A DNA stretch of 55,132 bases from Folioceros fuciformis (GCA_049999805.1 JBNGIO010006348.1:161554-216685), one strand, 5' to 3'; counted from the first letter of the stretch, positions 12,341-33,302 are shown. The notes: generated from the letters alone by a model not told the origin. Program-made: numbers and translations.

Positions 12341-12535
12341 GACAATGTGCTAGATGGGACCTTTTGTCGACAAGACAATGTGCTAGATGGGATCTTATGT
12401 CAAGGGGACAATGTGCAAGATAGGACCTTGTGTCAAGGGGACATTTGTCGACAGGACAATATGTTAGATGGGACCTTGTGTCAAGGGACAAGGTGCAAGA
12501 CCCTTGACAACGTGCAAGATGGGACCTGGTGTCGA
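12310..12535. repeat. 33-bp minisatellite (ACAATGTGCTAGATGGGACCTTTTGTCGACAAG-like), about 6 degenerate copies
   Basis: ACAATGTG starts at 12342, 12375 and 12408 (33-bp spacing); the minus strand reads repeated LDTRSHLAHC. Confidence 0.85.
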
Positions 12536-12551
12536 AAATGGCAATCACATA

Positions 12552-13000
12552 CACCCGTGAAGAAACCAACCTTCTCATGCACTCTTGAAGGAACCAACCT
12601 TCTCACGCACCCGTAAAGGAACCAACCTTCTCACGCACCCGTAAAGGAACCAACCTTCTCACGCACCCTTGAAGAAACCAACCTTCTCACGCACCCCTAA
12701 CCCTAAACCAACCTTCTCATGCACCCTTGAAGAGACCAACCTTGTCTCCCACCCGTGAAGAAACCAACCTTCTCACGCACCCTTGAAGAGACCAACCTTG
12801 TCTCCCACCCGTGAAGAAACCAACTTTCTCACGCACTCGTGAAGAAACCAACTTTCNNNNNNNNNNAACCAACTTTCTCACGCACTCGTGAAGAAACCAA
12901 CTTTCTCACGCACCCGTGAAAAAACCAACCTTTGCACGCACCCCTAACCCTAAACCAACCAACCCTAAACCCTAAACCCAACCTTCTCATGCTCCCGGCA
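12552..13000. repeat. 28-29-bp minisatellite (AACCAACCTTCTCACGCACCCGTGAAGA) with embedded telomere-like CCCTAA/CCCTAAA units; spans a 10-N gap
   Basis: About 15 tandem units. CCCTAACCCTAAACC near 12695 and 12942; AACCCTAAACCCTAAACCC at 12961-12979. Confidence 0.9.
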
Positions 13001-13982: not shown

Positions 13983-16900
13983 ATGGTGCTCGTCTCATCA
14001 GCCATGGCGGCGCGGAGCCATCCAGCTCCCTTGGCAAGCCATGAAGCCGCGAGGTGCAATTCACTTATAAGACCGCCAGCCTGTCCGCGAACATGTACGA
14101 ATGGTGGGCAGGCGATTCAGGCGGGTAACAGACCAGACACCAACGGCTTCCGGCCTACACTACACGAATGGAGGGTGACTGTGAAGATGGTGAGCAATCT
14201 ATGTGAGCAGGGACATGTGAGTGAGGGTGTTGAGGCTTTGGGCTGTCTGGTGGAGGGAGGCTGGGGTGTTCCAGCATCTCTTTTTTACTCTGTGCTGAAG
14301 GCGTGCGTTCTGAAGGAGGATGTGGTGGTAGGTCGCCGTGTGCATGCTTTTATGGTGAGGCAGGGGTACTGGGGGGACTCGTTCCTGTGCAATCACATGC
14401 TGCGGATGTATGCGTCTCATGGGAGGTTGGGGGAGGCGATGGATGTGTTTGGCATGGTTCCGGAACCGGATGCCTTTATGTGGTCTTCCATCATCTCTGC
14501 CCATGTGAAATGCGGGCGGGACAAGCAGGCGTTAGATTTGTATGGTCGGATGAGTAGGTCAAGCGTCAAGGCAGATGGGCATGTGTTTGTGGCGGCACTT
14601 CAGGCTTGTGCAAGGGGACGGAACTTGAGAGCTGGACAGGAGCTGCATGCTGATGTGTTGGCCTGTGGGCTTGGGTATGACTTGTTTGTGGGCAATGGCT
14701 TGGTGGACATGTATGCCAAGTGTGGCAGCTTGGAGGACGCTCGGAGAGTGTTTGACGGGCTTGGTCAGAAAGATGTGGTGACATGGACTGCTCTGATTGC
14801 AGGGTATTCCCAGCATGGCATGGGAAAGGAAGCGCTTCGTGTGTACCGGGCTATGCAAGAGGAAGGCGTCGTTGTGCCCAATTCGGTGACTTTCGTGTCC
14901 CTATTGCAGGCATGTGCAAGTGTGGGCACCTCGGCTCTGGAGACGGGGAAGGAGCTTCACTCACATATCAGAGAAGGACGGCATTCTGCTGATGTGCTTG
15001 TTGCCAACAGTCTAGTGAACATGTATGCAAAATGTGGCAGCCTGGAAGAGGCTCAACGAGTCTTCGACGGTCTGGGCCAAAAGGATGTGGTGACCTGGAC
15101 TGCGCTAATTGCAGGCTATTCCCAGCAGGGCATGGGCCAGGAAGCTATCCGCCTGTACAGTGCCATGCAACTTGGGGGCATCGCTGTGCCCAATTCCATC
15201 ACGTTTGTGTGCCTCTTGCAGGCTTGTGCAAGCGTAGGCTCTGGGGCATTGGAGAAAGGGAAGGAGCTTCATACACAAATCAGAAAACTTGGACACGAAT
15301 CTGATGTGTATGTAGGTAGCAGTTTGGTGAACATGTATGCTAAATGTGGGAGCTTGGAGGACGCTCAAAACGTCTTCGATAACCTTGCCCAAAAAAATGT
15401 GGTGACCTGGACGGCGCTAATTGCAGGATATTCCCAGCAGGATATGGGCCCGCAGGCTCTTAGTCTTTACAGTGTTATGCAAGCAGAAGGTATCGCTGTG
15501 CCAAATGCTGTGACATTTGTGTGCCTCCTGCAAGCATGTGTGACGGTCGGCTTTCCAGCTTTGGAGATCGGGAAGCAGCTCCATGCACAAATTAGAGAAC
15601 AGGGACATGGGAGTGATGTGTTTGTAGCTAGCAGCTTGGTGTGCATGTATGTAAAGTGTGGCAGCCTTGAAGATGGCCGAAGAGTGTTTGACCAGCTTGG
15701 TCAAAAGGGTGAGGTAGCGTGGAATGCCATGGTGGCAGGGCTTTCTCAGGAAGGCAGGGACCGGGAAGCCCTTTCCCTCTACCGTGAAATGCAAGAAGAG
15801 GGTATTTCTGTATCCAATTCCGTGACGTTTGTTTGCCTCCTGCAAGCGTGCGCAAGTCTAGGCACCCCAGCACTGGAGACTGGAAAGCAGCTCCATACAC
15901 AACTTACAGAATGTGGACACCAAGCGGATGTGTTTGTAGCCAGTAGTTTGGTGAACATGTATGCAAAGTGCGGCAGCGTGGAGAATGCCCAGGCAGTGTT
16001 TGATGGACTCGTCGAAAAGAATGTAGTGACATGGACTGCCATGATAGGAGGGTTTTCGCAACACGGCATGGGGCAGGAGGCCCTTCGTCTGTATAGTGCT
16101 ATGCAGGGAGAAGGTATTGTTGTACCCAATGCTGTGACATTTGTGTGCCTTCTACAGGCCTGTGCAAGTTTGGGCGCCCCAGCTTTGGAGGAGGGAAAGC
16201 AGCTCCATACACAGCTCAGGGAGCTAGGACATCAAGCTGATGCATTTGTAGCTAACGGTGTCGTAAACATGTATGCAAAGTGTGGCAGCTTGGAAGATGC
16301 TCAAAAAGTGTTCGAGGGACTTGGGCAAAAAGATGTGGTTACGTGGAATGCCATGATAGCAGGGTATTCCCAGCAGGGAATGGGGCAAGAGGCCCTTGGT
16401 CTCTATAGGGCTATGCAAGAAGAAGGCACCACCGTACCAGATTCTGTGACATTTTTGTCTCTTCTGCAGGCATGTGCAAATGTGGCCGCGTTGCATCTGG
16501 GTAGGGAACTACATGCGCAGATTGAAGAGCAAGGGCTTCAAGTTGACATGTCAGTAGCCAGCAGTTTGATCCACATGTATGGAAAATGTGGGAGCATGTT
16601 CGATGCACAGCTTGTTTTTGATGCATTGCCTAAGAGAAATAGCGCTACTTGGGGTGCACTGATTGCAGGCTATAGCTCTCAAGGAGACAGTGTTATGGTT
16701 TTCCTCTTGGTCGAGAGAATGAAAGAAGATGGCATACAGCCAGGGGCCATCACATTCCTTAGTGTGTTAACAGTATGTAGTCATGCGGGTCTGGTAAACA
16801 GAGGGAGAGACTGTTTCGACGCTATGAGCAGGCAATACGGGATCAATCCAGCGGTGGAGCACTACACATGCATGGTGGATCTCCTGGGCCGTGCAGGCCA

Positions 16901-17285
16901 ACTGGACGAGGCACTAGCCATAGTAAGGGCCATGTCTATCCTGCCTGATTCATCAGTTTGGCACACTCTGCTGGGTGCCTGCCAGAAGTGGAGAAACGTG
17001 GAGGTGGGACGCCAAGCTTTTGACCAAGCACTAAAGCTAGATGAGCAAGATGCCGTAGCATATGTGTTGATGTGCAATATCTACAGGGCAGCACAGATGT
17101 GGGAGGAGGCACGGAAGGTGCAGGTTAGGAGAACAAGAACCAGAGCATGGAAGCAGGCAGGTCAGAGCTGGTGGACCGACATCGATGGACTGGTGCACAG
17201 TTTTTTGGTTGGGGATGAAAAGCAACCCGAGCGCTTTTCAAGACAGAAGGTTCATAAGTTCAGGGAGGCACAAGTCTGCAGTTGA
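13983..17285 (+). CDS. PLS-class pentatricopeptide repeat protein with E1-E2-E+ (WW-type, no DYW); putative organellar RNA editing factor, about 27 motifs
   Basis: 1100-aa intronless ORF with repeated P (DVVTWTALIAGYSQ), L (NSVTFVCLLQAC) and S (SLVNMYAKCGSLEDA) motifs, then P2-L2-S2 (VCSHAGLV, HYTCMVDLLGRAG), E domains and KQAGQSWWTD..G.VHSF.VGD. The true start may involve upstream exons. Confidence 0.95.
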   Translation: MVLVSSAMAARSHPAPLASHEAARCNSLIRPPACPRTCTNGGQAIQAGNRPDTNGFRPTLHEWRVTVKMVSNLCEQGHVSEGVEALGCLVEGGWGVPASLFYSVLKACVLKEDVVVGRRVHAFMVRQGYWGDSFLCNHMLRMYASHGRLGEAMDVFGMVPEPDAFMWSSIISAHVKCGRDKQALDLYGRMSRSSVKADGHVFVAALQACARGRNLRAGQELHADVLACGLGYDLFVGNGLVDMYAKCGSLEDARRVFDGLGQKDVVTWTALIAGYSQHGMGKEALRVYRAMQEEGVVVPNSVTFVSLLQACASVGTSALETGKELHSHIREGRHSADVLVANSLVNMYAKCGSLEEAQRVFDGLGQKDVVTWTALIAGYSQQGMGQEAIRLYSAMQLGGIAVPNSITFVCLLQACASVGSGALEKGKELHTQIRKLGHESDVYVGSSLVNMYAKCGSLEDAQNVFDNLAQKNVVTWTALIAGYSQQDMGPQALSLYSVMQAEGIAVPNAVTFVCLLQACVTVGFPALEIGKQLHAQIREQGHGSDVFVASSLVCMYVKCGSLEDGRRVFDQLGQKGEVAWNAMVAGLSQEGRDREALSLYREMQEEGISVSNSVTFVCLLQACASLGTPALETGKQLHTQLTECGHQADVFVASSLVNMYAKCGSVENAQAVFDGLVEKNVVTWTAMIGGFSQHGMGQEALRLYSAMQGEGIVVPNAVTFVCLLQACASLGAPALEEGKQLHTQLRELGHQADAFVANGVVNMYAKCGSLEDAQKVFEGLGQKDVVTWNAMIAGYSQQGMGQEALGLYRAMQEEGTTVPDSVTFLSLLQACANVAALHLGRELHAQIEEQGLQVDMSVASSLIHMYGKCGSMFDAQLVFDALPKRNSATWGALIAGYSSQGDSVMVFLLVERMKEDGIQPGAITFLSVLTVCSHAGLVNRGRDCFDAMSRQYGINPAVEHYTCMVDLLGRAGQLDEALAIVRAMSILPDSSVWHTLLGACQKWRNVEVGRQAFDQALKLDEQDAVAYVLMCNIYRAAQMWEEARKVQVRRTRTRAWKQAGQSWWTDIDGLVHSFLVGDEKQPERFSRQKVHKFREAQVCS

Positions 17286-19375
17286 AGAGCGGCGAATGTT
17301 CATATTTATCAGCGCTCCTCCCGGTATTTGTCCGGAGTTGAAGGCGTTTAAGATCCTCGCCGAATTGCTGTGCTTGACGCTCCTGGTGAGGTGCCTTGGA
17401 TTGAAATGCCTACGCTGCTTGAAGACCCTTAATTTGTGTGTCTTTTTCTATGGAGGACGCTGGTGAGGTGACGCTTCATATGTTACAGGGCATGAAAGGA
17501 GGTAGCTCCAGATCTCTTCAAAGGACCCTCAGGCGGCTGGCAAACCGGCAGGAAGACGAACTCCACCAAATCTCACAGATTCCAAGGACAACAGGTGCAT
17601 GCGATGGCTTCCCTCATGGATGCATGTCTTGTCTCGCAACATGCGTTTTTCTTTTACTTGCGCGTCACGCTGCAGTGTCTCACTTCGCTCCCTTGGCATG
17701 ATTGAAGAGGAGCAGGCGCAGCAGAATCTGATTGCTGGACCCACGTCTTACAAATAGCCCCTGGGTGCTCTCCGAGAATTCTACCCGAAGCTCATTTTCG
17801 AGGAGAAGCTAGAACATAATACCCTGCACCAAGTGTTGGAATTCGTTAGGATGAGGCATCAGTGGAAGTTCAGGTGAGGCAAATGCGCTCTCCAAAATTC
17901 GGAGGCATCGTTAGTGGGCAGTACAGTTCCATGTGGATATCTACCTGGTGAAGAGCAGGCTAGATCAATGACGTGTCGGAAGCCCGGGTGACTAGGGTCT
18001 GCTTCGATGCTTCTGGAGGCATCTTCTGCCGCCAGATGGGGCGGCTGAAGATCGTGCTGGCCTGGATGTGAACACTCTGGCAACTGAAAGTGTGGCCATC
18101 AATGCTCTGTGGCTGGTGTGACATCAGCAGGTGACTTTTCCCTCTTGTACTTCTAGTGGACACGGGTGACCTCATTTATGCTCCAGGGCTCATCTCCTCG
18201 ATTTTAATTTTTGACAGCCGGTCATATTCTCGGCTAGGGAGTCGGTCCCGGGGCTGGTCTGTCATTGCCAACCAGCAAGGTGCTGCTCATTCTCAGGTCC
18301 CAGTAGTTGGCCCCCTCCACCTGCCCACTTTACTCCTCTTGGAAGTTCCACCTACTGGTACTCCTGCACTTGTATGTACATACTGGGATACTGGAACACA
18401 TTCCTTCGAGTTGCTAACACGCTGTGCGATAACTGGCAGTGTGATCACCAAGCCAAGAAATTTGTACTGCATTGCCGAGGCACTCAAGCATGCCAAATGT
18501 TGGAAAGCAAGTTGTGAGATCTTCGGAGTCTTGGTGTGTCCGAGTTACTACGGTGTGTACAAGCATGTACAAGTCAAAGCCATGAGTCAAGCCCGATTCG
18601 CATGAACGTACGTCCCTGCCAGTGCTTGCTGTGAAGCACTGACCGAGCCGCACTTGAATAGACTGGGTTACTGAGGATACACATGTCTGGAGGTCCAGGA
18701 CGCATGAACATGTGCATGTACAGAGCACCATGTGTATGTGTATGTTCGCTGTACAAAAATGTGAAGCATGGCGAGGACGGTGAATTCAAACTGGAGCAAT
18801 TGGGTGTTAATTAGAGTAGTGTGTTACGGCACTGGAAGATTGCGATCCGGTGGGTGCAGTAGTACCTGATTCTGAGAGGCACTGACAAGCCCGCGAGGTG
18901 GCATTTGTTTATTGCTGCGGTGTGCTGCCGCTCATCTGTGATTGCTCGGATCCGCTGCCAGCGGGCTGACCGACGGCTCGCCGCCCGATCAGGCGCCGGT
19001 GAGCATTTGTTGCAGGCTGTGTGAGTAGTATAGGCGAAGGTTCTGTAGTTTGCCGGAGGGCACGGTGGGCTCTGGGCAGCTGCTGCGCTTTTGAGAGCTT
19101 CCAGGAGCTGGAGGAGTTTCCGACAGCTAGGAGTGTGGTGGTCAATCATACGGAGATTCCGCGTCTTAGTGCTCTGGATTGGCATGGTTTCAGCTGGCTC
19201 ATTGCTGGGTGGAGATGCGGCGGCGGCGGGAATGACGCTCGGTGCACGGGAAGTGGGTTCCGAAGGGAGTGGTAGATGCCAGCTGCTTCCGGTTTGAGTA
19301 GGTTTGAGGCAGATTGGGGAGATTTAGGGAAGTTGGTGTTTCGAGGATCGTTTGCAGGTGAGAGATGTGCTGAGG

Positions 19376-20419
19376 ATGGGCAAAGGAAGAGGTAGTTGCT
19401 GCAGCTCAAGCCCCGAGGTTCCTTCGGAGCCTGAGCAATTTCGTCCAGGTGAGCTCCCTCTCTCTGGTTGCCTAAAGGGTACTGTATTCCCGAGAAGCGG
19501 TTGAACTCAATATCGGGTTTGGCAGATTCTCCTTCCAGGTCCCCAGTGCTGCCAGCTGGGAAGCTGAAGATCTACATCATGTGAGTGAGTGGTGTGCTGT
19601 GAGATGGTCCAGTGGTAGATTGGTGGTGTGAAGCCGTGACAGTAGCTCACGGCTTGTTGGCAATGGCAGTTATTACAGCCTGTTTGGTCATATTGCCACC
19701 CTGGCTAAGAAGATCAAGGAAGGAGTGGACAGCGTTGACGGTGTTGAGGCGCATCTGTTTCAAGTCCCCGAGACGCTGACAGATGACGTGTTGGCCAAGA
19801 TGGTGGCTCCGCGAAAGGACCCAGCAGTGCCCATCATCCAGCCGGAGCAGATGGTAGAAGCTGACGGGCTCATATTCGGGTTTCCCACCAGGTTTGGGTC
19901 GATGGCGGCTCAGATGAAACAGTTTTTTGATTCCACTGGCCAGCTGTGGAAGGGTCAGAAGCTAGCGGGCAAGCCTGCTGGGCTGTTTGTGAGCACTGGA
20001 TCACAGGGAGGTGGACAGGAGACCACGGCGTAAGTTTCATATGACTTGCGTTTTGCCCAGTTGGAATATTGCAGCTGTCTCTCTCGCTCCTGTGTGTCTT
20101 GAGCGTGGTTGCTGTGAGTATGGGCAATGTCAAGTACAACTGTGGACGGTTACGGTACGTTCAGTGCTGTGGTAAACTCTTTGTGAATTTTTGCAGGTTA
20201 ACAGCAATCACTCAACTGGTGCACCACGGTATGCTATTTGTTCCCATTGGCTACACTTTCGGCAAGGGGATGTTCGCCTTAGATGAGCCACGAGGTGGAT
20301 CCCCCTACGGTGCGGGAACTCTTACAGAGAATGGATCAAGGCAGCCCTCCCAACTGGAGATGGATCTGGCTGTACATCAAGGACGACGCACGGCTCAAAT
20401 AGTTAGAAGGTTGGGTTGA
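19376..20419 (+). CDS. Flavodoxin-like NAD(P)H:quinone oxidoreductase (WrbA/FQR1-like, N-terminally extended type); 4 exons: 19376-19448, 19526-19580, 19670-20029, 20197-20419 (236 aa)
   Basis: GT-AG splicing gives a 711-nt frame: MGKGRGSCC...KIYIIYYSLFGH...FQVPETL...ADGLIFGFPTRFG...[35 protein letters not shown]...GGSPYGAGT. Confidence 0.93.
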
Positions 20420-21144
20420 TTCCCTTTTCTCAATATTCAAAACTGCGTTTCTTGTGAGGGGTGTGATGCCTAACGTCCTCTCGCCGAATTCTTTGGCCAG
20501 ACCCTCGGGCTCCCTATTGTAGCCTAAGTCTATGTCCTTGTAATCCTTCTCAGTGCAGTGACGATCCTCAACTCAGTAAAGAGCTGGCACACAAAGGCAC
20601 TTGAGAAACAGTCGGATTTAAGCTTTTATGTGCTATCAGCTTTATTATCACTTACAAAGTTTGAACCATCAGGGCAACTAGTTTTCCCTTAAAAGGCTCT
20701 GTGCTTCAGAGCACAACCCAGTGCGTTGCGTGCATCACTGCCTGACCAATCACAAACTCCCAACTGTAAACAGGGCGGTCCGGCGAGGAACCGTGTTGTG
20801 CTTTCGCCGACAGCAGCCACTCACCGATACTACCGAGTGCGTGATGCTGCCTGAGATCCCAAAGTATGAGGTTCCCTCAGGTGTAGCAAACCGCTTTTGG
20901 TTTCCGGGTGACACCATGGTGCGATTCACAGGAAGACATTTCCCTGAGGATCCAAGACTGGCACCTGTCAACAGCGGTACGTTTCTTGTGAGGTATCCTC
21001 CTTTACTCGCGACATTGCGAGCGAAGTCACGGTTGGAAACGATGAGAAGAAGGCAGTTAACGTCACCAAAAACTCGACATATTTCACGTTAGGGACACAG
21101 TCAGAAATCCGGATGTAGACGCAGCTGTTCCATGCTCGACTTCA

Positions 21145-22786
21145 CTACGTCCCTTGTTCTGCACCCAGTTTTTCCAAGAAACGAGAGGTCTCTTCAGTGA
21201 TCCCATGCTTGGAGTTGGTGGTGACAAAGGAGACCCATGTCATACTAGTTGGTTTCGGTAAGCCGTGCAGCACATTAACGGCGTCCTGTGGGCTGTCACA
21301 CCTCACAAACATGTCCACAACCGCTACCTGCAATACCAAATCTGATCCCAGCCCTCTCTTGCAGGTGTGGGCGTAAATCCTTCGGCCTTCCTCAGCAGCC
21401 TTGAGGCTGGCACACGCATACAGGGCCCACACATACGTGATGGCGTTGGGTTTGGCATCATCCAGCAGTAACTGCTTGTAAAGCTTCAAAGCCTCCTTGC
21501 CATCTTGGTGTGTAACATATCCTTCGAGCATGGTGTTCCATGAAACAATATCCCTGTACCGCATTTTGTAAAAGACGTCTCTCGCAGACTCCATGCTGCG
21601 ACATGTAGTGTACATTAATATGATTGCATTCTCGATGAGCATGTCTAGTTCACAGCCACTGTTGACTATTTTGTTGTGAATGTCGCGGCAATGCTGCAAA
21701 GAACCAGTATTAGCACATGCGCCCAGGACCTGGACACAAGTCTCAGTGGTGGGTTTGACACCGGAAACCTGCATTTGCTCGAAGAGTTTGATGGCTTCCA
21801 TAACATAACCTCCATTAGCACATGCTCTTATCATCTCCGACCATAGTGCCTCAGGTCTCTTAGGTAGGTGTTCGAAGACTGCAAATGCTGCCTGTATGTT
21901 CCCACACTTGGCGTACATGGCAACAAGTGCTGTCCCCACATAGCTATCCCCTGCAAACTCGCTATTCATAATTCGCTTATGAACTTGGCTGCCTTCCTTC
22001 AGAGATGATGCATCCCCGCATGCTTTCAGGACGGAAGAAAAAGTGGATCTATCTGGCCTGAATCCTTCTAGACACATCCGCTCAAACATCTTAAAAGCAT
22101 GAATACCATGACCATATTGAGCATATCCAGCAATCAAACCGTTCCAAGATACCACGTTACGTTGTCTCATGCTCTCGAATAGTTGGCGCGCTGACCTCGT
22201 GCAACCACACTTTCCGTACATTTCTATGAGAGCATTGCTCACAAAAAGATCTGAATCAAACCCGTAGTGGATGACCAGGTCGTGTATCTGCCTGCCGTCC
22301 TCCAGGTTTGTTATGCTTGTGCAGGCATTGAGGGCAGCCACCAAGACAAACTTGTTAGGCTTCACTCCCTCACGGATCATCTCCCGAAAGGCTCTCAGTG
22401 CCTCGGTGTTATGCTTGAGCTTCACATACCCTCTAATGAGAACGTTCCATATGAAAACATTCTGCTTTTTCAAATCATTTGCAAAGTTCCTCGTTTTCCG
22501 AAAAGCAGTTCTTGCAAGACCCATTTTCCCACAGGCAGCATACATCCTAACCAGAAGAACTCCAAGATAGAAGCTGGACTGCAATCCAGCACGGTTGATG
22601 TGCGCATGTACCCGCTTGCCTTGAACGAGGGCTTGCCTCTTCATGCAAGCAAGCAGGAGAATACTGTATGTTTCAGTTCCTAGCGACCAAATCCCTTGGT
22701 GGTCCATGTTTTCCAGGATGTCTACAGCATCTTGCAGACGATTCTCAGCACATAGTCGAATGACATCGTCCGATTGCCCTGATAAC
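21145..22786 (-). CDS. Main exon of a divergent PLS-class PPR protein with no E/DYW extension; N-terminal exon(s) probably lie in 22950-23730
   Basis: 520-aa ORF of P/L/S motifs (NVFIWNVLIRGY, NALIEMYGKCG, NVVSWNGLIAGYAQ). The frame continues upstream (DVIRLCAENRLQDAVDIL) to a TGCAG acceptor next to 22786. It stops at 21145 with no E motif. Confidence 0.88.
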
Positions 22787-23951
22787 CTGCACCCACATCA
22801 TTGGAAGAGTACTCTCGTAGATGTTGATTTGCACAATGTCTCCTTGAAATCCCTCAAACAGATATTAGCAGTGCGACAAATGAAGAAATACAGTGCCAAT
22901 TCCCACCTCCCGAGGTCTGGGCTCAGAGAATGATTGAGTCTAACTTGAGAGAATCCCAGTGTTCCAGTGTCCAGTCGGTCTGCTCTAGGCCAATGGGAGT
23001 ACAAGCCTAGTGCCGCCCTACTGACTCTCTTGTCTCGCTTCCATGGAAAGCCTGACATGCAAACTCCTTGGTGGTCAGACGCAAAGCGGTTTGTTTGGAC
23101 TGACACAGTATCTCTCTCCCACAGATTAACTCACCCGAAAAACCCTTCAGGGATGCACAGCTTCTCCCAGACGCAAGGTACCCCACAATTTGTCCACAAC
23201 CTCGTTGCCTCGCGAAGGTGAGGAGTTTCTGCATAATGCTCCTCGTAGCTCCAGATCAAAACAATCAACACATCTTTCAGTTTTCCAGCAGCACAACTCC
23301 ACATGCAGGAGAGACAGGACGGGGCATAAACACAAACAGCAGTGGAGCCACTGGCTTCGGAGCAAATCACTTTACTGCCCATCAACGAGTGCTCTGAGGC
23401 ACGTGAGAATGAAGCTTCCCTGGTAGGACAATCCCTGCCGACTGTCGGGACTGTCTGTGCTCCAGGGAATGGATGGCCGCTTAGAGCAGGAAGAGGCCCT
23501 TTACACCCCAGCTGAGACATGTTTGTAACTTTGTGAAAGTCATGTTGGGAATAGCATCGGACGTGCTGGGCACCGATGAATGCTGACGAGTCTATAAAGT
23601 GGGGAGTAAGACAATCCTTGCACGTAGGCGCCTGTGATATTGGCAAATTACGACGTCCAAGTAACTCGGCTCGATGATAATGGCTCATAGCTGCTAGCTG
23701 TGGCTGTTCAGAGCTTCGCACTCGATTCACATTAAGGGCAAGAGAAACCGATTCCAGAATGGTTTTCTGGACCGAACGAAGTGGAGGGCTGTCATCAGAG
23801 TGCCCAGGAAATGCTGTCTTTCGCCTGACTTCAAGGAACCAACCGCTGCAATCAACCAGGCCTCGAGGCGCAGCAGCTTCACATCAAAGCCAGTCCCTGC
23901 AAAAGAGCATGTCTGGTTGGAAACGCTTGTCCCACCGTGAATCGTTTGGAT

Positions 23952-26900
23952 ATGGAGATGGCTTTTCGCGCCTTCACATGCAACTTGAGGCTGCCGGATG
24001 ATCCTGGCCCACGCAGGCCTGGAGGATACGAAAGAGGGGTCACGGTACATACCGTTCGCAAGCTATGCCATCAGGGCTATCTCAAGGAAGCCGTTGAGGC
24101 TTTGGGAGTTTTGGTGCAGGCAGACGGTCGTCTCTCCAGGTCTATTTTTTATGTTGTCCTGAGAGACTGTGTAGTGAGGAAGGACCTTGCTCTTGGTCGC
24201 CGTGTTCATGCCTTGTGTGTTCAAAAAGGATATGAATCAGATACGTTCCTGTGCAATCACATTCTACGAATATATGCCTCTCATGGCAAGTTGCAAGACG
24301 CGATGGATGTGTTCACCATGGTTGACAAACCAGATGCCTTCATGTGGTCTTCTATAATTTCTGCGCATGTCAAACACGGACAAGACAAGCGAGCCATTCA
24401 TCTGTATCACATGATGCGCAGGTCAAGTGTGAAGCCAGATGGCCATGTATTTGTGGCAGCTCTTCAGGCTTGTGCAAGGGCAGCAGACATCGATGCCGGG
24501 CAGGAGCTGCATGCAGATGTGTTGAAAAGTGGTGCTGAGCGTGATTTGTTCGTCTGCAATTGCTTGGTGGACATGTATTCCAAGTGTGGCAGCTTGGAAA
24601 ACGCTCAGAGAGTGTTTGACGGACTTGGTCAGAAAAATGTGGTAACGTGGACTGCTCTCATTTCTGGATATTCCCAGCATGGCATGGGCCAGGAAGCTCT
24701 TAATCTCTACAGAGCTATGCAAGATGAAGGCATCGTTGTCCCAAATTCTGTGACATATATGAGCCTCCTGCAAGCGTGTGCAACTTTAGGCACCCCGGCA
24801 CTAGAGAAGGGTAGGCAACTTCATGCAGAAATCAGGAAAGGAGGACACCAAGCTGATGTGATTGTAGGCAATAGTTTGGTCCACATGTATGCAAAATGTG
24901 GCAGCTTGGAAGATGCTCGGACAGTGTTTGAGGGACTCAAGCAAAAAGACGTAGTGACGTGGACTTCCCTAATTTCAGGGTACTCCCAGCAGCACATGGG
25001 CCAGGAAGCTCTTGGTCTCTTCAGAACAATGCAAGAAGATGGCACCACTGTGCCCAACTCTGTAACCATTGTGTGCGTCCTGCAGGCATGTGCAAGTGTG
25101 GGCACGCCAGCTTTGGAGTTGGGGAAGCAGCTGCATGCGCAACTGAGAGAAGGAGGACGTGAAACTGATGTGTTTGTGGCCAACGGGTTGGTGAACATGT
25201 ATGCAAAGTGTGGAAGCGTGATAGATGCTAGAAGAGTGTTTGACACGCTTGTTCTAAAGGATGTGGCAACGTGGAATGCCATGATAGCAGGGTATTCTCA
25301 ACAGGGCTTGGGACATGAAGCTCTTGGTCTTTACAGTGCGATGCAAGAAGAGGGGATTGCTTTACCAGATTCAGTGACCTTTGTGTGCCTCCTGCAAGCA
25401 TGTGCAAGTGTGGGCACACCAGCGTTGGAGACCGGCAAGGAGCTTCATGCACGGATTAGTGAATGTGGACACCAATCTGACTTTCTTGTTGCCAGCAGTT
25501 TGGTGAACATGTATTCCAGGTGTGGCAGCTTGACAGATGCTCAGACTGTGTTTGAGACACTTCGTCAAAAAAATGTGGTGACCTGGACTGCACTAATTGG
25601 AGGATATTCCCAGCATGGCATGGGCGATGAAGCTCTTCGACTTTACAGTGCTATGCAAAGTGAAGGCATCGCTGTACCCAATTCCGTCACATTTGTGTGT
25701 CTCTTGCAGGCATGCGCAAGCATTGGTGACCAAGCTTTGGAGACGGGGAAGCGGCTTCATGCACAAATCTTTGAAGGCGGATACCAGAGTGATGTGTTTG
25801 TCGCCAACAGTTTGATTGACATGTATGCAAAATGTGGGAACGTGGAACATGCTCAGAGAGTCTTTGACGGACTTTGTCAAAAAGATGTGGTGACGTGGAC
25901 TGCTCTACTCGGAGGGTATTCCCAACAGGGCATGGGGCAGCAGGCCCTTCGTGTCTACAGTGTTATGGAAGAACAAGGCTTAGTTGTACCAGATTCTGTG
26001 ACATTTGTGTGCCTCTTGCAGGCATGTGCAGGTGTAGGCACCCCAGCATTAGAGAAAGGGAAGCAGCTTCATGCTCAGATTATAGAAGGGGGATACGAAG
26101 TTAATGTGACTGTGGCCAGCAGCTTGGTGAACATGTATGCAAAGTGCGGCGACCTGGAAAAGGCTCAAAGACTGTTTGAGGGTCTGGCTGAAAGAGATGT
26201 GGTGACGTGGACTACGTTGATTGCAGGGTACTCCCAGCAGGGAATGGGCCAGGAAGCCCTGCGTCTCTACAGAGCTATGCAAGAAGAAGGTTTTGCTGTA
26301 CCCAATTCTGTGACATATGTGTGCCTCCTGCAGGCATGTGCAGGTGTGGGTACTACAGCTTTGGGCACAGGGAAGCAGCTTCACACACAAATTAGAGATC
26401 AAGGGCTTCAAGCGGATGTGTTCATAGCTAACAGTTTGGTGAACATGTACGCGAAGTGTGGCAGCTCGGAAGATGCAAAGACGGTGTTCGACACACTTAG
26501 TCAAAAAGATGTGGTGACATGGACTGCCCTAATCGTGGGATATTCCCAGCAGGGCATGAGGCAAGAAGCCCTTTGTCTCTACAGCTCCATGCAAGAAGAT
26601 GGCCTAATTGTCCCCGATCCCGTGATGTTCGTATCTCTCCTGCAGGCATGTGCAGGTTTGGGCAACGTAGCGTTGGAGAAGGGGAAGCAGCTCCATGTGC
26701 AGATTAGAGAACGAGGACTTCAAGCTGATCTGTTTGTCGCCAACAGTTTGGTGGACATGTATTCAAAGTGTGGCAGCTTGGAAGATGCTCAGAAAGTTTT
26801 TGATGGGCTTGGTCGGAAAGATTTGGTGACGTGGAATTCCATAATATCAGGATACTCCCATGGGGGCATGGAGCTGCAAGCCCTTAGTCTATACAGTGCT

Positions 26901-28019
26901 ATGCAAGAAGAAGGCATTGTTGCACCAGATTGTGTGACATTCACGTGCCTCCTGCAGGCATGCGCAAGTGTGGGTGCCCCTGCTTTGCAGAATGGGAAGC
27001 ACCTCCACATGCAGATAGTAGAGCAAGGGCATGAAGCCGATATGTTTATAGCTAGCAGTTTGGTGAACATGTATGCAAAGTGTGGCAGCGTGGAAGACGC
27101 TCAGAGAGTTTTTGATGGACTTGGTGAAAAAGATGTGGTGATGTGGACTACCATGATAGCAGGACTTTCCCAGCACAGCATGGGGCATGAAGCCCTCTGT
27201 CTCTACAGTGCTCTGCAAGAAGAAGGTAGGGGTGTATCTGATTCCCTCACACTTGTGTCCCTCCTTCAGGCATGTGCAGATGTGGCAGCCTTGGATATAG
27301 GAAGGCAACTACATGCACAGATTGAAGAAGTAGGACTTCAATCTGATGCCTTCGTGGCCGCCAGCTTGATAAACATGTACGGAAAATGTGGGAGCATGAT
27401 TGATGCGCAGCAGGTATTTGATGGCTCGATTGAAAGAGATGTTGTTACGTGGAGTGCGCTGCTTACAGGATACGCTTTTCAAGGAGACTTTGAAGGGGTC
27501 TTCGACTTGTTCGAGAGAATGAAAGAGGACGGCATACAGCCAGTAGGCATCACATTCGTTAGCCTACTGACAGTATGCAGTCACGCAGGGCTTGTGAACA
27601 AGGGTAGGGAGTACTTCGATGCTATGAGCAGACGTTACAGCATTGCTCCAACAGTGGAGCACTACACGTGCATGGTGGATCTCCTGGGCCGTTCAGGCCA
27701 TCTGGATGAGGCACAGGCTTTGATAAGCACGATGCCTGTTCCACCCAATGCGGCAGTTTGGCACACTCTATTGGGGGCTTGTCGGAAGTGGAGCAACGTA
27801 GAGTTAGGACGCCATGCTTTTGACCACGCGGTGAAGCTAGACAAGGAAGATGCTGCAACATACGTGTTGATGTCCAACATATACTCTGGTGCCCAGCTGT
27901 GGGATCACGCACAGGAGTTGCAGGAGATGAGGAGAAGAATCGGTGCACGGAAACAGCCGGGCCAAAGCTGGTGGACAGATTTGGATGGACAAATACACAG
28001 TTTTGTATCTGGAAGTTAG
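23952..28019 (+). CDS. PLS-class PPR protein with E1-E2-E+ (WW-type, no DYW), about 36 motifs; paralog of 13983-17285
   Basis: ORF opens at GTG 23937, first ATG 23952. Same architecture as the first PPR, with three extra P-L-S triplets; ends RKQPGQSWWTDLDGQIHSFVSGS-stop. Confidence 0.95.
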   Translation: MEMAFRAFTCNLRLPDDPGPRRPGGYERGVTVHTVRKLCHQGYLKEAVEALGVLVQADGRLSRSIFYVVLRDCVVRKDLALGRRVHALCVQKGYESDTFLCNHILRIYASHGKLQDAMDVFTMVDKPDAFMWSSIISAHVKHGQDKRAIHLYHMMRRSSVKPDGHVFVAALQACARAADIDAGQELHADVLKSGAERDLFVCNCLVDMYSKCGSLENAQRVFDGLGQKNVVTWTALISGYSQHGMGQEALNLYRAMQDEGIVVPNSVTYMSLLQACATLGTPALEKGRQLHAEIRKGGHQADVIVGNSLVHMYAKCGSLEDARTVFEGLKQKDVVTWTSLISGYSQQHMGQEALGLFRTMQEDGTTVPNSVTIVCVLQACASVGTPALELGKQLHAQLREGGRETDVFVANGLVNMYAKCGSVIDARRVFDTLVLKDVATWNAMIAGYSQQGLGHEALGLYSAMQEEGIALPDSVTFVCLLQACASVGTPALETGKELHARISECGHQSDFLVASSLVNMYSRCGSLTDAQTVFETLRQKNVVTWTALIGGYSQHGMGDEALRLYSAMQSEGIAVPNSVTFVCLLQACASIGDQALETGKRLHAQIFEGGYQSDVFVANSLIDMYAKCGNVEHAQRVFDGLCQKDVVTWTALLGGYSQQGMGQQALRVYSVMEEQGLVVPDSVTFVCLLQACAGVGTPALEKGKQLHAQIIEGGYEVNVTVASSLVNMYAKCGDLEKAQRLFEGLAERDVVTWTTLIAGYSQQGMGQEALRLYRAMQEEGFAVPNSVTYVCLLQACAGVGTTALGTGKQLHTQIRDQGLQADVFIANSLVNMYAKCGSSEDAKTVFDTLSQKDVVTWTALIVGYSQQGMRQEALCLYSSMQEDGLIVPDPVMFVSLLQACAGLGNVALEKGKQLHVQIRERGLQADLFVANSLVDMYSKCGSLEDAQKVFDGLGRKDLVTWNSIISGYSHGGMELQALSLYSAMQEEGIVAPDCVTFTCLLQACASVGAPALQNGKHLHMQIVEQGHEADMFIASSLVNMYAKCGSVEDAQRVFDGLGEKDVVMWTTMIAGLSQHSMGHEALCLYSALQEEGRGVSDSLTLVSLLQACADVAALDIGRQLHAQIEEVGLQSDAFVAASLINMYGKCGSMIDAQQVFDGSIERDVVTWSALLTGYAFQGDFEGVFDLFERMKEDGIQPVGITFVSLLTVCSHAGLVNKGREYFDAMSRRYSIAPTVEHYTCMVDLLGRSGHLDEAQALISTMPVPPNAAVWHTLLGACRKWSNVELGRHAFDHAVKLDKEDAATYVLMSNIYSGAQLWDHAQELQEMRRRIGARKQPGQSWWTDLDGQIHSFVSGS

Positions 28020-28095
28020 ATTAGTGGGGGCCATTATCTTCGAGTACCCATTATCTTATGTCAAATTCATCTTCATTTGTGGAAAAGAGATGAAA

Positions 28096-28883: not shown

Positions 28884-31800
28884 TCACAGTTCTTGATCAT
28901 GCTGCACCAGGATACTATACTTCTTCCTATCCATATCTTCTTTCTCTTTGCCTAGCACAAATGGTTTCAACATAGATACATGAAATACATTGTGTGCAAA
29001 AATCCAGTCAGGCAAGTCCAACTTGTAAGCCACTTCTCCAATGCGCTTCAAGACAACATATGAACCTCCATACTTTGGTCTCAACTTTAAAGACAATCCT
29101 TGGGGTAGTGTGAAATGCTTCAGTTTCACCCAAACTTTATCTCCAACATTGAAGACAGTTTCTCTCCTGTGCTTATCGGCATATCTCTTTTGACGTGCTT
29201 GAGCCTTGGCTAATATCTTTTGGGCAACCTCATGCCTAGCCTTCAATTGCTCACCAAATTGGCTTGGATCTCCAATAGTAGTGTCGAAAACTTCAGCATG
29301 GATATCACATCCAAAGCTGAATTTCCACTCATCTCAAAAGGACTACATCCCAGGGAGCTATGAATTGTGTTATTGTAACAAAACTCCACATCATCAAGAT
29401 GATCAGCCCAATCTCTCTGATCAATCTGCACACAGTGCCTCAAATATTCTTCTTGGATTCGGTTGACTCGCTCAGTTAATCCATTAGTATCTGGATGGTA
29501 TGCAGTACTCATGCATAGCTGCACATTCAAGCTCTTCATCAAGTGCTGCCGGAACTCTCTTGTGAATCTTGGATCTCTATCGCTCACAATCTGCACGGGC
29601 AACCATGATACTTGTACACATACTTTTTGAACAAGTTTGCTGCCTCAGAAGAGGTCACTCGCTTCTTGGTGGGGATGAAGTGTGCTTGTCTGGTGAATCT
29701 ATCCACCACTGTCATGATAGCTGTAAATCCATTACTGGAAGGCAAGGGCATGATGAAGTCCATAGAAATACTTTTCCATGGGCCTCTTGGGATAGGTAGG
29801 GGCTGTAATAAACCTCTCGGCTTAGCCTGCTCAACCTTGTCCTGCTGACAAATAGGATATGCCTTGACATAATCTAATGTATCTTGATACATTCCTTGCC
29901 AATGGAACAGTCTCCTCAACTTCTCATAAGTTGAATCACCTCCACGGTGACCAGCACTTGGCACATCATGACACTCAGCAAGCAATTTCCTCTTCAAGCC
30001 TACAGAGTTAGGGATCACAACTCTCTTCTGTTTGTATATCAACAAACCATCTCTGAGTTTGAACTTGCTTCCTTTCTCTGCCACCCCATTCATCTAGTCC
30101 TGTACTTCAGGATCTTGCAGATAAACTTCTTTTATCTCTTTGTGAGCATCCAAAGGTTCAATCACAGTTGCCATTGCTTTCACGTCTTGACTTTGCTTGC
30201 GGCTCAGCGCATCTGCAACCTTATTCTCTTTTCCAGGTTTATATCTTAGAGTCACGTCATACATAGCTAGGAAATCTTGCCATCTAGCTTGCCTCACATT
30301 CAACTTCAACTGGTTTGAGAAGTACATCGTGCTAATATTATCAGTATACAGCACAAAAGACCTACCCAAGAGATAGTGTCTCCAAGCCTTCAGACAGTGG
30401 ATGACAGCAGTCATTTCCTTCTCATAGGTGGGATACTTCCTTTCATAAGGATGCAACTTCCTTGACTCAAAAGCTAACGGCTTTTGGTCCTGCATCAAAA
30501 CTCCACCTATAGCCACATTTGAGGCATCACAAAACACTTCCACATCTCTCTTGGGGTTATACATTCCCAACACCGGAGTCGTGCTCAACTTCTTCTTAAA
30601 GCATTCAAAGGTTGCTTGGCAATCAGCATCCCATTTCCAAGCTTTTGCTATCTTCAAGAGGTCAGTTATGGGGGCTGCTATCTTAGCAAACACATGTACA
30701 AACTTCCTGTACACAGAAGCCAAACCCATAAAACTTCGCACCTCATGAATATTTCGAGGGTACTGCCAATCTTGAATGGCCTTAACTTTATCAGGATCCA
30801 TCCTGATGCCCTTGGCAGAGACAATGAAACCTAAGAATGAAATTTCTGTCTTGATAAAGTCACACTTCTTGATTGCCAAGAACAAAGAATTCTCTCTTAG
30901 TCTCTGTAACACTTTCCTCAAGTGTTCAACATGTTCCTCCAAGGTATGACTATAGATCAAAATGTCATCCAGATAGATTACAACACACTTGTCCACCAGA
31001 TATATGAATATAGTATTCATAAGAGTCTGAAATGTAGCAGGTGCGTTAGTAAGTCCAAATGGCATGACAAGGAACTCAAAAGATCCATACCTTGTTCTGC
31101 ATGCTGTTTTGTACTCATGCCCCTCAGCAATCCTGATCTGATAGTACCCTGCCATCAGGTCTAGCTTGGTGAAATACTTGGCACCCTTCAACCTGTCAAA
31201 CATGTCGTCCATTCTCGGCAAAGGATATGCATTCTTGATTGTAATCTGGTTCAAAGCTCTGTAATCCAGACACAATCTAAGTCCTCCATTCTTTTTGCAC
31301 GTGAATAACACAGGCGCACCAAAGGGAGACTTAGAAACTCTGACATATCCCTTTGCCAACAGGTTGGATAGTTGTCGCTTGAGTTCTTGCAACTCATCTT
31401 GTGACAATTTATATGGTGCTCTCGAAGGAGGTGTACTCCCTGGCCTCAACTCAATTTCATGATCCACAACTCTGCGAGACGGCAATGGTGGCAACTCATC
31501 TGGCATCAAGTCCTTGAACTCATCTAGTACAACTTGTACTTCTTTTGGGATGTCCTTCTCCTCTGTGGAATCTTCTTCCAAACCATCCTCTAGTCCTTGG
31601 AGTAGAACCAAGTATAACTCCTTCTTTTTCCTGAGGTCTTTCTTGAGCTCTCTTTTTGTAATCAACTGTACTGATACGCTCTCAAGCCTCTGGCTACTGC
31701 TAGCACAACTTACTTTGTGCTTTCTGGATATCTCGATAGCGCATGACTTAACATCCATTTGCACTTCATTAGATCTCAACCACTCCAGACCTAGGATGAT

Positions 31801-32060
31801 ATCATGGTCATCCATCTCCACGACTGTAAAACTCACACTTCCTTGCCACACATCAACTTGCAGCTTTACTCCATGCAATTCATCCAGAAATTGCAGAGTT
31901 CCTTTAGCTTGCTTGATTCTATATGGCGTGGAAGTTTCAGTCCAATCAAGGCCAAGCTCTCTTGCCTAATGTGGAGTCACAAAATTATGGGTGGCTGTAG
32001 AATCTAACAATAGCTCAACATCCAAGCCATTGATCTTGCCACATATATACATCAAGTCTC
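28884..32060 (-). pseudogene. Gypsy pol (protease-RT-RNaseH-integrase), interrupted by stops and frameshifts
   Basis: ORF pieces 30094-31878 (RT/RH), 29584-30093 (integrase HHCC region, SMDFI), 29243-29602 (IVSDRDPRF) and 28884-29246 (GPY/F-like, HNVFHVSMLK). Confidence 0.9.
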
Positions 32061-32136
32061 CACCGTCCCTGGAAATAGTGTCATCCTTGACACTTGATGA
32101 CTCACCACATGTCTTCACAGCATGTGGCCCCTAGCG

Positions 32137-33249: not shown

Positions 33250-33302
33250 CGTTAACCAGCGTACTAGTCAAGGATGCTTCAACCTATGCTCTGATACCAA
33301 CA

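What the first reader, a model, noticed from the sequence alone, without database searches (positions are those of the whole stretch)
13983..28019. Two paralogous RNA-editing-type PPRs built as accordions of an exact 312-bp P-L-S module (about 27 vs 36 motifs)
Seen: the ATG of the MY(A/S)KCG motif recurs at exactly 312-nt intervals. In gene 1 it is at 14709, 15021, 15333, 15645, 15957 and 16269. In gene 2 it is at 24573, 24885, 25197, 25509, 25821, 26133, 26445, 26757 and 27069. Each gene then has one 306-nt step. The N-terminal and C-terminal caps are homologous, and the genes differ by exactly three modules. The module scaffold is nearly invariant while the specificity residues (5th/last: TN, TD, ND, NN, SN, SD) vary. 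Established: these residue pairs set base recognition in PLS proteins. Inference: unequal crossover or gene conversion of a homogenised module acts as a TALE-like, reprogrammable generator of new RNA specificities. Arrays this long are well above typical angiosperm PLS proteins.
Basis: partly seen in the sequence, partly recalled or inferred. Interest (0 to 1): 0.75.

Follow-up and report, generated by a model that had tools for sequence, protein, structure and literature searches.

The report
Two long-array PPR genes, old repeats
These are two intact neighbouring plant genes for long RNA-binding PPR proteins whose equal-length repeat modules were copied long ago and have since drifted apart, so they are ordinary members of a huge known family and not an active specificity generator.

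Summary
The coordinates and spacings are exact. Two intronless ORFs (13983-17285, 1100 aa; 23952-28019, 1355 aa) carry the MYxKCG ATG at 312-nt steps (5 and 8 steps), then one 306-nt step each. They have homologous caps and differ by exactly three modules.

Both are PLS-class PPR proteins ending in E1-E2 plus a PG-box stub, with no DYW deaminase.

The modules are equal in length only:
- They are 67-79% identical in DNA and 56-76% in protein, and 23 of 104 columns are invariant.
- Synonymous divergence between modules (medians 0.8-1.4) matches that between the two genes' caps (about 1.0-1.1).
- The module tree is a star and modules do not group by gene.
- A conversion-tract test is negative, global p 0.54.
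- The 5th/last residues vary as described but rank only 30-47 of 104 in variability.

So whole modules were gained or lost in register long ago. Ongoing homogenisation or a TALE-like generator is not supported.

Long, consensus-like PLS arrays are common in conifer, lycophyte and fern homologues. The 104-aa triplet (P1 36, L1 37, S1 31) is a minor variant.

Verdict: a new member of a known kind, of low interest.

The parts
13983..17285 (+). Gene 1: intact intronless ORF, 1100 aa, PLS-class PPR protein of the E+ type (protein P0001)
   Evidence: ORF, translation. Pfam PPR, PPR_2 and E_motif match, with no DYW.
13983..14678 (+). Gene 1 leader and N-cap (aa 1-232): presumed targeting leader, a P-L pair, and one canonical 101-aa S-P-L triplet
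   Evidence: Segmentation. Homologous to the gene 2 N-cap, dS 1.10 and dN/dS 0.25.
14679..16238 (+). Gene 1 array: five 312-nt (104-aa) S1-P1-L1 modules
   Evidence: Spacing. Unit identities. TRF period 312.
16239..16544 (+). Gene 1 last array unit, 306 nt (102 aa; its L1 lacks the 2-aa insertion)
16545..17285 (+). Gene 1 C-cap: S1-P2-L2-S2-E1-E2, a PG-box-like stub (KQAGQSWW...), then the stop codon
   Evidence: Pfam E_motif at aa 1004-1063. Sequence. No DYW downstream in the three forward frames, and no DYW signature motifs in any of the six frames.
23952..28019 (+). Gene 2: intact intronless ORF, 1355 aa, a paralogous PLS-class PPR protein (protein P0002)
   Evidence: ORF, translation. Pfam PPR, PPR_2 and E_motif match, with no DYW.
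23952..24542 (+). Gene 2 leader and N-cap (aa 1-197)
24543..27038 (+). Gene 2 array: eight 312-nt (104-aa) S1-P1-L1 modules
   Evidence: A three-module piece (25167-26102) folds as 18 helices, pLDDT 88. It has TM 0.90 to the synthetic PPR-DYW structure 9kfx.
27039..27344 (+). Gene 2 last array unit, 306 nt (102 aa)
   Evidence: It pairs with the last unit of gene 1 in the unit tree, support 69/73.
27345..28019 (+). Gene 2 C-cap: S1-P2-L2-S2-E1-E2, with the PG-box stub cut short after ...HSFVSGS
   Evidence: Pfam E_motif at aa 1280-1340. Compared with gene 1 there is an insertion of roughly 60 nt. After it stands a TAA where gene 1 has CAA.

Best explanation
These are two neighbouring genes on the same strand, 6.7 kb apart. 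They are intronless nuclear genes for PLS-class PPR proteins of the E+ type, meaning E1-E2 plus a short PG-box stub and no DYW deaminase.

Each protein is an alpha-solenoid of helix hairpins. It has 27 (gene 1) or 36 (gene 2) PPR motifs.

The inner part of each array consists of 104-aa S1-P1-L1 triplets. All of them share two small derived insertions: +1 residue at the end of P1 and +2 residues in the L1 loop. They therefore descend from one founder triplet that was multiplied in register, by tandem duplication or unequal crossing-over.

That multiplication, and the events that left 6 versus 9 units, are old. They date to about the time of the duplication that made the two genes. Since then every module has evolved on its own under purifying selection (dN/dS about 0.2). 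I found no detectable homogenisation.

The exact 312-nt period reflects structural constraint on motif length. It does not reflect sequence identity.

Inferred function: each P and S motif reads one RNA base through its 5th and last residues, so each protein binds its own long single-stranded stretch of an organellar transcript. Lacking a deaminase, it would have to recruit one in trans, as angiosperm E+ proteins are proposed to do with DYW2.

Shown here: gene structure, family, fold, absence of DYW, module divergence, purifying selection.
Inferred only: RNA target, organelle location, editing role, trans deaminase.
For: Structure and family:
- ORFs and exact spacings.
- Pfam PPR_2 at E 3e-116 and 1e-167, and E_motif at 7e-11 and 1e-14.
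- A three-module model has pLDDT 88.2 and 18 helices. Its best fold match is the synthetic PPR-DYW 9kfx_A, with TM 0.90 and rmsd 2.3 over 312 columns. The designer PLS protein 5iww is second. Both are also the top sequence matches.

Age of the modules:
- Units are 67-79% identical in DNA.
- dS medians are 1.40 (15 pairs within gene 1), 0.80 (36 pairs within gene 2) and 1.00 (54 pairs between genes). Cap dS is 1.10 and 0.96.
- The tree is star-like with no grouping by gene.
- Tract test: the observed longest run of concordant sites is 20, against a permuted mean of 20.2, p 0.54. The longest exact run shared by any two units is 29 nt.
- No DNA similarity was found outside the ORFs.

Common founder:
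- The +1 and +2 insertions are shared relative to 101/102-aa units of ten homologues.

Purifying selection:
- Cap dN/dS is 0.25 and 0.22. Mean unit dN is 0.20-0.23.
- A related organism's run (X4) holds pieces about 93% identical on both genes. Of the 39 listed differences I took as X4's, 19 are synonymous.

Ordinariness:
- 24 of 120 homologues have 5 or more equal-length triplets with mean unit identity of 0.63 or more. They come from Cryptomeria, Diphasiastrum, Adiantum and unnamed sources.

Papers:
- PLS tracts tend to be longer in seed-free plants, and E+ forms are counted there (PMC13263110, passages).
- The DYW domain can be supplied in trans (PMC11094755, passage; PMC11121751 and PMC7076377, abstracts).
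Against: - No direct evidence of function, target or location was obtained.
- Gene 2 is truncated inside the PG-box region by an insertion and a stop codon. This could mark decay.
- dS on 104 codons is noisy and near saturation, so the order of module multiplication and gene duplication cannot be resolved.
- Within-gene-2 dS (median 0.80) is somewhat below cap dS. This leaves room for some later duplications or old conversion inside gene 2.
- The tract test saw only the 15 units of this window. Donors elsewhere in a clearly large family could not be examined: 5613 contigs of run X1 lie on the stretch at 90% likeness or more.
- Unit counts were not independently verified, because no contig spans an array.
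- In the less biased set of 136 representatives, none has units as alike as here: 0 of the 8 with 5 or more triplets reach 0.63. The arrays are therefore at the consensus-like end of the range.
Confidence: 0.75

Rival explanations
1. The 312-bp module is kept homogeneous by ongoing unequal crossing-over or gene conversion, and only the specificity residues are free to vary. The loci would then act as a TALE-like generator of new RNA specificities.
For: - Exact period with no indels.
- A whole-module difference between the paralogues.
- Code residues differ between modules.
- The majority sequences of the modules of the two genes are almost the same.
Against: - Units are only 67-79% identical in DNA.
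- dS between units is about 0.5 to over 1.5, equal to cap divergence.
- The tree is a star with no grouping by gene.
- The tract test gives p 0.54 and the longest shared exact run is 29 nt.
- Code columns rank 30-47 of 104 in variability, and 81 of 104 columns vary.
- Exact period is also seen in homologues with much lower unit identity.
Confidence: 0.05
2. Family-wide mosaic evolution. The uniform, star-like divergence is a steady state between mutation and occasional short-tract exchange among hundreds of PLS genes of this genome. The donors would lie outside the window.
For: - Thousands of contigs 90% or more alike pile on the arrays. In run X1, 5613 were laid: 712 at 99% or more, 1557 at 95-99% and 3344 at 90-95%. 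The flanks stay near depth 13.
- Many contigs join a gene 1 place to a gene 2 place.
- A few unit pairs have nominally long concordant runs, with pairwise p of 0.005-0.03 before correction.
Against: - The global tract test is negative.
- The first and last units still pair across the genes by position.
- Short contigs may match only the most conserved stretches of any PLS module, and summed depth is not a copy number.
- No family member outside the window could be read.
Confidence: 0.1
3. Decaying relics. These would be former PPR-DYW genes that lost their deaminase and are now non-functional or on the way to becoming pseudogenes.
For: - No DYW domain is found in or after either ORF, or anywhere in the window.
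- Gene 2's PG-box region is interrupted by an insertion and a stop codon.
Against: - Reading frames of 3.3 and 4.1 kb stay open despite a dS of about 1 between the copies.
- dN/dS is 0.22-0.25.
- About half of the listed differences to a related organism are synonymous, 19 of 39.
- DYW-less E+ proteins are a functional class in angiosperms (PMC11121751 and PMC7076377, abstracts) and are counted by the hundred in a fern (PMC13263110, Table 1 passage).
Confidence: 0.1
4. Assembly artefact: the unit numbers (6 and 9) are errors of assembling a repeat.
For: - The window has four N gaps.
- No short-read contig spans an array.
Against: - Units are distinct. The longest exact run shared by any two is 29 nt.
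- The N gaps lie outside both genes: 12857-12866, 33893-33902, 45190-45199 and 52948-53047.
- Both frames are open throughout.
- Contigs of another sample of the same organism label (X3) match the unique parts of both genes without any difference.
Confidence: 0.03

Closest known systems
E+ subgroup PLS-class PPR editing specificity factors of angiosperms, proposed to recruit the deaminase DYW2 with NUWA
   Same: P-L-S triplets, then P2-L2-S2-E1-E2 and a short stub of the DYW N-terminus, with no deaminase of their own. The 5th/last residues use the canonical alphabet.
   Different: The arrays here are far longer (27 and 36 motifs). The modules are consensus-like. The triplet is 104 aa. The organism is probably not an angiosperm, and whether a trans deaminase exists there is unknown. 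The DYW2/NUWA role is taken from abstracts (PMC11121751, PMC7076377).
Long, consensus-like PLS arrays in Cryptomeria japonica, Diphasiastrum complanatum, Adiantum capillus-veneris and unnamed assemblies
   Same: Proteins of 1100-1828 aa with 5-11 equal-length triplets and mean unit identity of 0.63-0.94 (24 of 120 hits).
   Different: Their period is 101 or 102 aa, never 104. Many carry a DYW domain. The best identity to the window's proteins is only 45-54%.
DOT4 of Poaceae
   Same: This is a PLS editing factor whose DYW domain degenerated while its PPR stretch was kept and extended by six additional PPRs, that is, two triplets (PMC6424221, passages). It is a precedent for whole-triplet gain together with loss of the deaminase.
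   Different: It involves a single extension event in a conserved orthologue. It is not a burst of one founder module.
Designer PLS proteins (synthetic PPR-DYW 9kfx; PLS9-PPR 5iww)
   Same: They are the best sequence matches (E 6.5e-113 and 3.3e-87) and the best fold matches (TM 0.90 and 0.71). The natural modules here are close to the family consensus used for design.
   Different: They are man-made, built of three identical triplets of 101 aa.
TALE repeat arrays and RFL (restorer-like) PPR clusters
   Same: All are modular nucleic-acid readers with one base read per repeat. RFL clusters undergo unequal crossing-over (PMC7380019, passage).
   Different: TALE repeats are near-identical outside the two specificity residues (recalled, not tested). 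Here 81 of 104 columns vary. RFL proteins are P-class.
Naegleria gruberi PPR-DYW genes with 104-residue units
   Same: The unit length of 104 residues is the same, and the arrays consist of amplified triplets.
   Different: There, some units are reported as 92-97% identical (recent copying) and a DYW domain is present. This was not checked here, and I do not know whether the extra residues sit at the same places.

Membership tests
PPR protein, PLS class | Tandem PPR motifs detected by family profiles | tested here: met
   PF13041 at E 3.3e-116 and 1.3e-167; PF01535 at 9.1e-105 and 9.6e-146.
PPR protein, PLS class | Motifs of unequal length arranged as repeating P-L-S triplets | tested here: met
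   Triplets of 101, 104 (five and eight of them) and 102 aa. Motif lengths are 36/37/31 against the canonical 35/35/31, with the extra residues located. The canonical lengths are taken from a PMC13263110 passage.
PPR protein, PLS class | Helix-hairpin alpha-solenoid fold like solved PLS proteins | tested here: met
   Model pLDDT 88.2, with 18 helices for 9 motifs. TM 0.90 to 9kfx_A and 0.71 to 5iww_D.
PPR protein, PLS class | Polar 5th and last residues of the recognised code in P and S motifs | tested here: met
   S1 has ND, SN, SD, NN and SG; P1 has TN, TD, ND and NN. The meaning of the pairs is recalled and was not tested.
E+ subgroup (E1-E2 with truncated DYW) | E1 and E2 motifs after P2-L2-S2 | tested here: met
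   PF20431 E_motif at aa 1004-1063 (7e-11) and aa 1280-1340 (1.2e-14).
DYW subgroup (self-sufficient editing enzyme) | DYW cytidine deaminase domain (PF14432) with HxE and CxxC zinc signature | tested here: not met
   No PF14432 match. Nothing was found in the three frames downstream. No HxE(K/R)xA or CxDCH motif occurs in any of the six frames of the window.
Organellar RNA editing specificity factor | Organelle import, binding upstream of an edited C, editing defect on loss | not testable with these tools
   No organelle genome, editome or expression data of this organism were available.
TALE-like or concertedly evolving repeat array | Repeats near-identical outside the specificity residues | tested here: not met
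   Units are 67-79% identical in DNA and 56-76% in protein. 23 of 104 columns are invariant, and the code columns rank 30-47 in variability.
TALE-like or concertedly evolving repeat array | Signal of conversion or recombination between repeats, with repeats grouping by array | tested here: not met
   Tract test global p 0.54. No grouping by gene: 5 changes against 4.9-5.0 for shuffled labels. Donors outside the window were not testable.

The most novel reading that the evidence does not exclude
In this plant lineage a derived 104-aa PLS triplet was burst-amplified from one founder and now populates a very large gene family. Whole-module gains and losses (6 versus 9 units here), together with occasional short exchanges among hundreds of paralogues, would supply new long-array, deaminase-less specificity factors. 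That would be a slow, natural module-shuffling system for organellar RNA recognition. A further possibility is that the 104-residue unit is a shared derived mark linking this lineage to the plant-type PPR genes of Naegleria.
Probability: 0.1. Interest if true: 0.5.

Novelty: new member of a known kind. Interest (0 to 1): 0.18.

Why it matters
The practical value is modest. The two genes add to the known picture that plants outside the angiosperms carry very long PLS arrays made of consensus-like triplets. They also show that such arrays can arise by in-register multiplication of one founder triplet, followed by long independent divergence.

The result is useful as a caution. An exact repeat period in a PPR gene reflects constraint on motif length and is not evidence of concerted evolution.

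The natural 36/37/31 triplet, which still folds like designer PLS proteins, may interest people who build synthetic PPR scaffolds.

Nothing here makes an open question newly testable.

Tried and rejected
- **Own genome:** none is held, so the rest of the family could not be read.
- **Earlier notes:** none for this genome or for look-alike stretches.
- **Sequencing runs:** no RNA holder is listed. One holder is only guessed to be RNA and also covers intergenic DNA, so I drew nothing on expression from it.
- **Unit counts:** short-read contigs break inside the arrays and none spans one, so the counts could not be checked independently.
- **DYW domain behind an intron:** rejected. The three frames downstream show none, and the window has no DYW signature in any frame.
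- **The roughly 60-nt extra stretch at the end of gene 2:** I considered it as a short intron. With either possible acceptor the frame stops within a few codons, and a TAA stands where gene 1 has CAA. I read it as an insertion.
- **Flanking homology:** none at E 1e-5 or below, so the extent of the duplicated segment beyond the ORFs is unknown.
- **Placing the three-module difference:** every diagonal shifted by multiples of 312 nt scores 70-74.6% and the tree is unresolved. The breakpoints cannot be placed.
- **Taxon:** the FQR1-like neighbour is 79% identical to an unnamed protein, 73-74% to Ceratopteris and 63-73% to named angiosperms. It is a land plant, probably not an angiosperm, and not resolved further.
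- **Close relatives of the proteins:** none above 54% identity in three searches.
- **Literature:** six searches found no paper describing burst amplification of a founder PLS triplet. Gutmann et al. 2020, the most likely place, is not held. I therefore make no claim that it is absent from print.


Full report
**What is there**

The window holds two long open reading frames on the + strand: 13983-17285 (1100 aa, gene 1) and 23952-28019 (1355 aa, gene 2). There are five 312-nt steps in gene 1 and eight in gene 2, each series followed by one 306-nt step. Tandem Repeats Finder reports period 312, 5.7 and 8.7 copies, 0% indels and 73% matches.

Cutting the proteins at the S1 motif gives this layout for gene 1:
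- a leader;
- a P-L pair;
- one 101-aa S-P-L triplet;
- five 104-aa triplets;
- one 102-aa triplet;
- S1-P2-L2-S2-E1-E2.

Gene 2 is the same but with eight 104-aa triplets.

That makes 27 and 36 PPR motifs by my segmentation, and a difference of exactly three modules. The length difference of 255 aa is three modules (312 aa) minus gene 1's longer leader (35 aa) and longer tail (22 aa).

**Family**

Pfam finds PPR, PPR_2, PPR_1, PPR_3 and the E motif in both proteins, and no DYW deaminase.
- The three frames downstream of either stop codon show no DYW sequence.
- No frame of the whole window holds the HxE or CxDCH signatures.
- Both proteins run a short way into a PG-box-like stretch (KQAGQSWW / KQPGQSWW) after E2 and then stop. 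Gene 2 stops earlier, after an insertion of roughly 60 nt relative to gene 1, and has TAA where gene 1 has CAA.

In the usual nomenclature this is the E+ type. Reading the PG box as a sign of the C-to-U branch rather than the KP (U-to-C) branch is from memory and untested.

A model of three modules (aligned with eight other three-module pieces of the window) has pLDDT 88.2 and 18 helices. Its best structural match is the synthetic PPR-DYW protein 9kfx_A (TM 0.90, rmsd 2.3 over 312 columns). The designer PLS protein 5iww follows. Both are also the best sequence matches in the PDB.

**Are the modules homogenised? No.**

- The 15 core units (6 + 9) are 67-79% identical in DNA and 56-76% in protein, whether compared within a gene or between genes.
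- Nei-Gojobori dS has a median of 1.40 within gene 1 (15 pairs, one not computable), 0.80 within gene 2 (36 pairs) and 1.00 between genes (54 pairs). Mean dN is 0.20-0.23.
- The caps, which can only be compared between the genes, give dS 1.10 and 0.96 with dN/dS 0.25 and 0.22.

The modules are therefore as old as the gene duplication itself, within the large error of dS on 104 codons.

A maximum-likelihood tree of the 15 units is a star. End branches are 0.14-0.21, and none of the 12 inner branches is well supported. Units do not group by gene: 5 label changes against 4.9-5.0 for shuffled labels.

The only pairings with some support are cross-gene and colinear:
- first unit with first unit (90/81);
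- last with last (69/73);
- g1u4 with g2u3 (61/87).

A Sawyer-type test on 222 polymorphic columns finds no excess of long concordant tracts. The observed maximum is 20 and the permuted mean 20.2, giving a global p of 0.54. The longest exact run shared by any two units is 29 nt.

BLAST diagonals shifted by any multiple of 312 nt all score 70-74.6%, and there is no similarity outside the ORFs.

**Where the variation sits**

Among the 13 full 104-aa units, 23 columns are invariant and 43 have entropy below 0.5.

The code positions do vary, and they toggle within the canonical alphabet:
- S1 fifth residue: N or S.
- S1 last residue: D, N or G.
- P1 fifth residue: T or N.
- P1 last residue: N or D.

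They rank only 43, 30, 47 and 45 of 104 in variability. The most variable columns are elsewhere, for example S28, L21 and P18. The claim that the rest is nearly invariant is not.

**Origin of the modules**

Compared with 101- and 102-aa units of ten homologues, the 104-aa unit has one extra residue at the end of P1 and two in the L1 loop. This gives motifs of 36, 37 and 31 residues.

All 13 full units share these insertions, while the first triplet (101 aa) has neither. The last array unit (102 aa) lacks the L1 pair.

Shared derived insertions, a star tree and almost identical majority sequences in the two genes point to a burst of in-register copying of one founder triplet, followed by long independent divergence. 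Whether the burst came before or about the time of the gene duplication cannot be settled.

The somewhat lower dS within gene 2 leaves room for some later copies there.

**Selection**

Two frames of 3.3 and 4.1 kb remain open at a dS of about 1 between copies, and dN/dS is about 0.2.

A run of a related organism (X4) holds pieces about 93% identical on both genes, for example 17 differences in 261 bases and 26 in 380. Both genes therefore predate that split.

Of the 39 differences listed in table 3 that I took as X4's, 19 are synonymous and 20 are not. This list is partial (182 more rows were not shown) and may include paralogues.

**Context**

Contigs of another sample of the same organism label (X3) match unique parts of both genes without any difference. 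Contigs of X1 and X2 may come from the source sample and are not independent.

Thousands of contigs lie on the arrays at 90% likeness or more. In X1, 5613 were laid: 712 at 99% or more, 1557 at 95-99% and 3344 at 90-95%. The flanks stay near depth 13. This fits a very large PLS family in this genome, though summed depth is not a copy number.

A third PLS gene with ordinary, dissimilar 101-aa triplets lies between the two on the other strand. LTR retrotransposons flank the region.

Papers report 1583-3256 PPR genes in hornworts, lycophytes and Takakia, expanded mainly by dispersed duplication linked to retroposition (PMC13386178, section 6 read). They also report that PLS tracts tend to be longer in seed-free plants, where E+ forms are counted by the hundred in one fern (PMC13263110, passages).

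**How unusual is it?**

No protein closer than 54% identity was found.

Among the 120 best hits of gene 2:
- 73 are 1100 aa or longer and 21 are 1355 aa or longer, with a maximum of 1828 aa;
- 34 have five or more equal-length triplets, with periods of 101 (29 proteins) or 102 (5 proteins);
- 24 of those 34 have a mean unit identity of 0.63-0.94, against 0.65-0.69 here. They come from Cryptomeria, Diphasiastrum, Adiantum and unnamed assemblies.

That search favours consensus-like hits. In the exhaustive search of representatives (30,399 hits at E 0.001 or below), 136 of the best 150 were new. Eight of these have five or more equal-length triplets, and none reaches 0.63.

The arrays are thus at the consensus-like end of a known range.

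No hit has a modal 104-aa period. However, earlier notes of this scan report 104-residue units in Naegleria PPR-DYW genes (not checked).

**Likely working**

By analogy with the family, each P and S motif reads one base through its 5th and last residues. Using the recalled code, the S1/P1 pairs of the six array units of gene 1 read U,A / U,A / A,A / ?,Y / A,A / U,U. The nine units of gene 2 read Y,A / U,A / U,U / A,A / U,G / G,A / U,G / U,U / G,G (pairs). The two proteins should therefore bind different long RNA stretches.

Without a deaminase they would need one in trans, as proposed for angiosperm E+ proteins with DYW2 (PMC11121751 and PMC7076377, abstracts; PMC11094755, passage).

Very long arrays may tolerate mismatches. 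This has been shown for synthetic P-class proteins beyond about 11-14 motifs (PMC11094755, passage).

A precedent for triplet gain with loss of DYW is DOT4 of grasses (PMC6424221, passages).

**Verdict**

The interpretation as an active, homogenised, TALE-like generator is not supported. These are two ordinary, probably functional members of a very large known family, carrying a minor triplet-length variant.

Noticed in passing
window 21145-22707 (-), stop-to-stop 21148-22797: A third PLS-type PPR gene (520 aa from its ATG) lies between the two genes on the other strand. It has ordinary, dissimilar triplets of 101 aa, and no E motif was found. A 4206-nt contig of run X3 covers 20197-22784 and 23134-23710. 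That contig carries 146 other letters where the window has 349 bases (22785-23133), which may be an indel variant.
   Followed up: partly
window 28887-33267 (-): ORFs of a Ty3/gypsy-type LTR retrotransposon (gag, zinc knuckle, protease, RT, RNase H, integrase, SH3) lie directly downstream of gene 2. They are split over several frames.
   Followed up: partly
window 37902-41274 (+) and 8383-8898 (-): ORFs of copia-type retrotransposons: gag, the Pol beta-barrel domain and RVT_2 on the + strand, and an integrase fragment on the - strand.
   Followed up: no
window 19632-20030 (+): An exon of an FQR1-like flavodoxin-type NAD(P)H:quinone reductase sits between the PPR genes. It is 79% identical to an unnamed protein and 73-74% to Ceratopteris richardii.
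   Followed up: partly
window 12301-12983: Minisatellites lie just upstream of gene 1, with periods of 17/33/66 and of 28/142 bp (14 copies of the 28-bp unit). A 10-N gap sits at 12857-12866 inside them.
   Followed up: no
window about 28015-28077: Gene 2 has an insertion of roughly 60 nt relative to gene 1 inside the PG-box region. Its own stop codon lies at the start of this insertion. After it, a TAA stands where gene 1 has CAA.
   Followed up: yes
window 1960-2517 (+), 35307-36192 (-), 53640-54248 (+): Fragments or exons with Pfam matches to radical SAM, cytochrome P450 and DUF659 (a domain often found in hAT-type transposase-like proteins).
   Followed up: no
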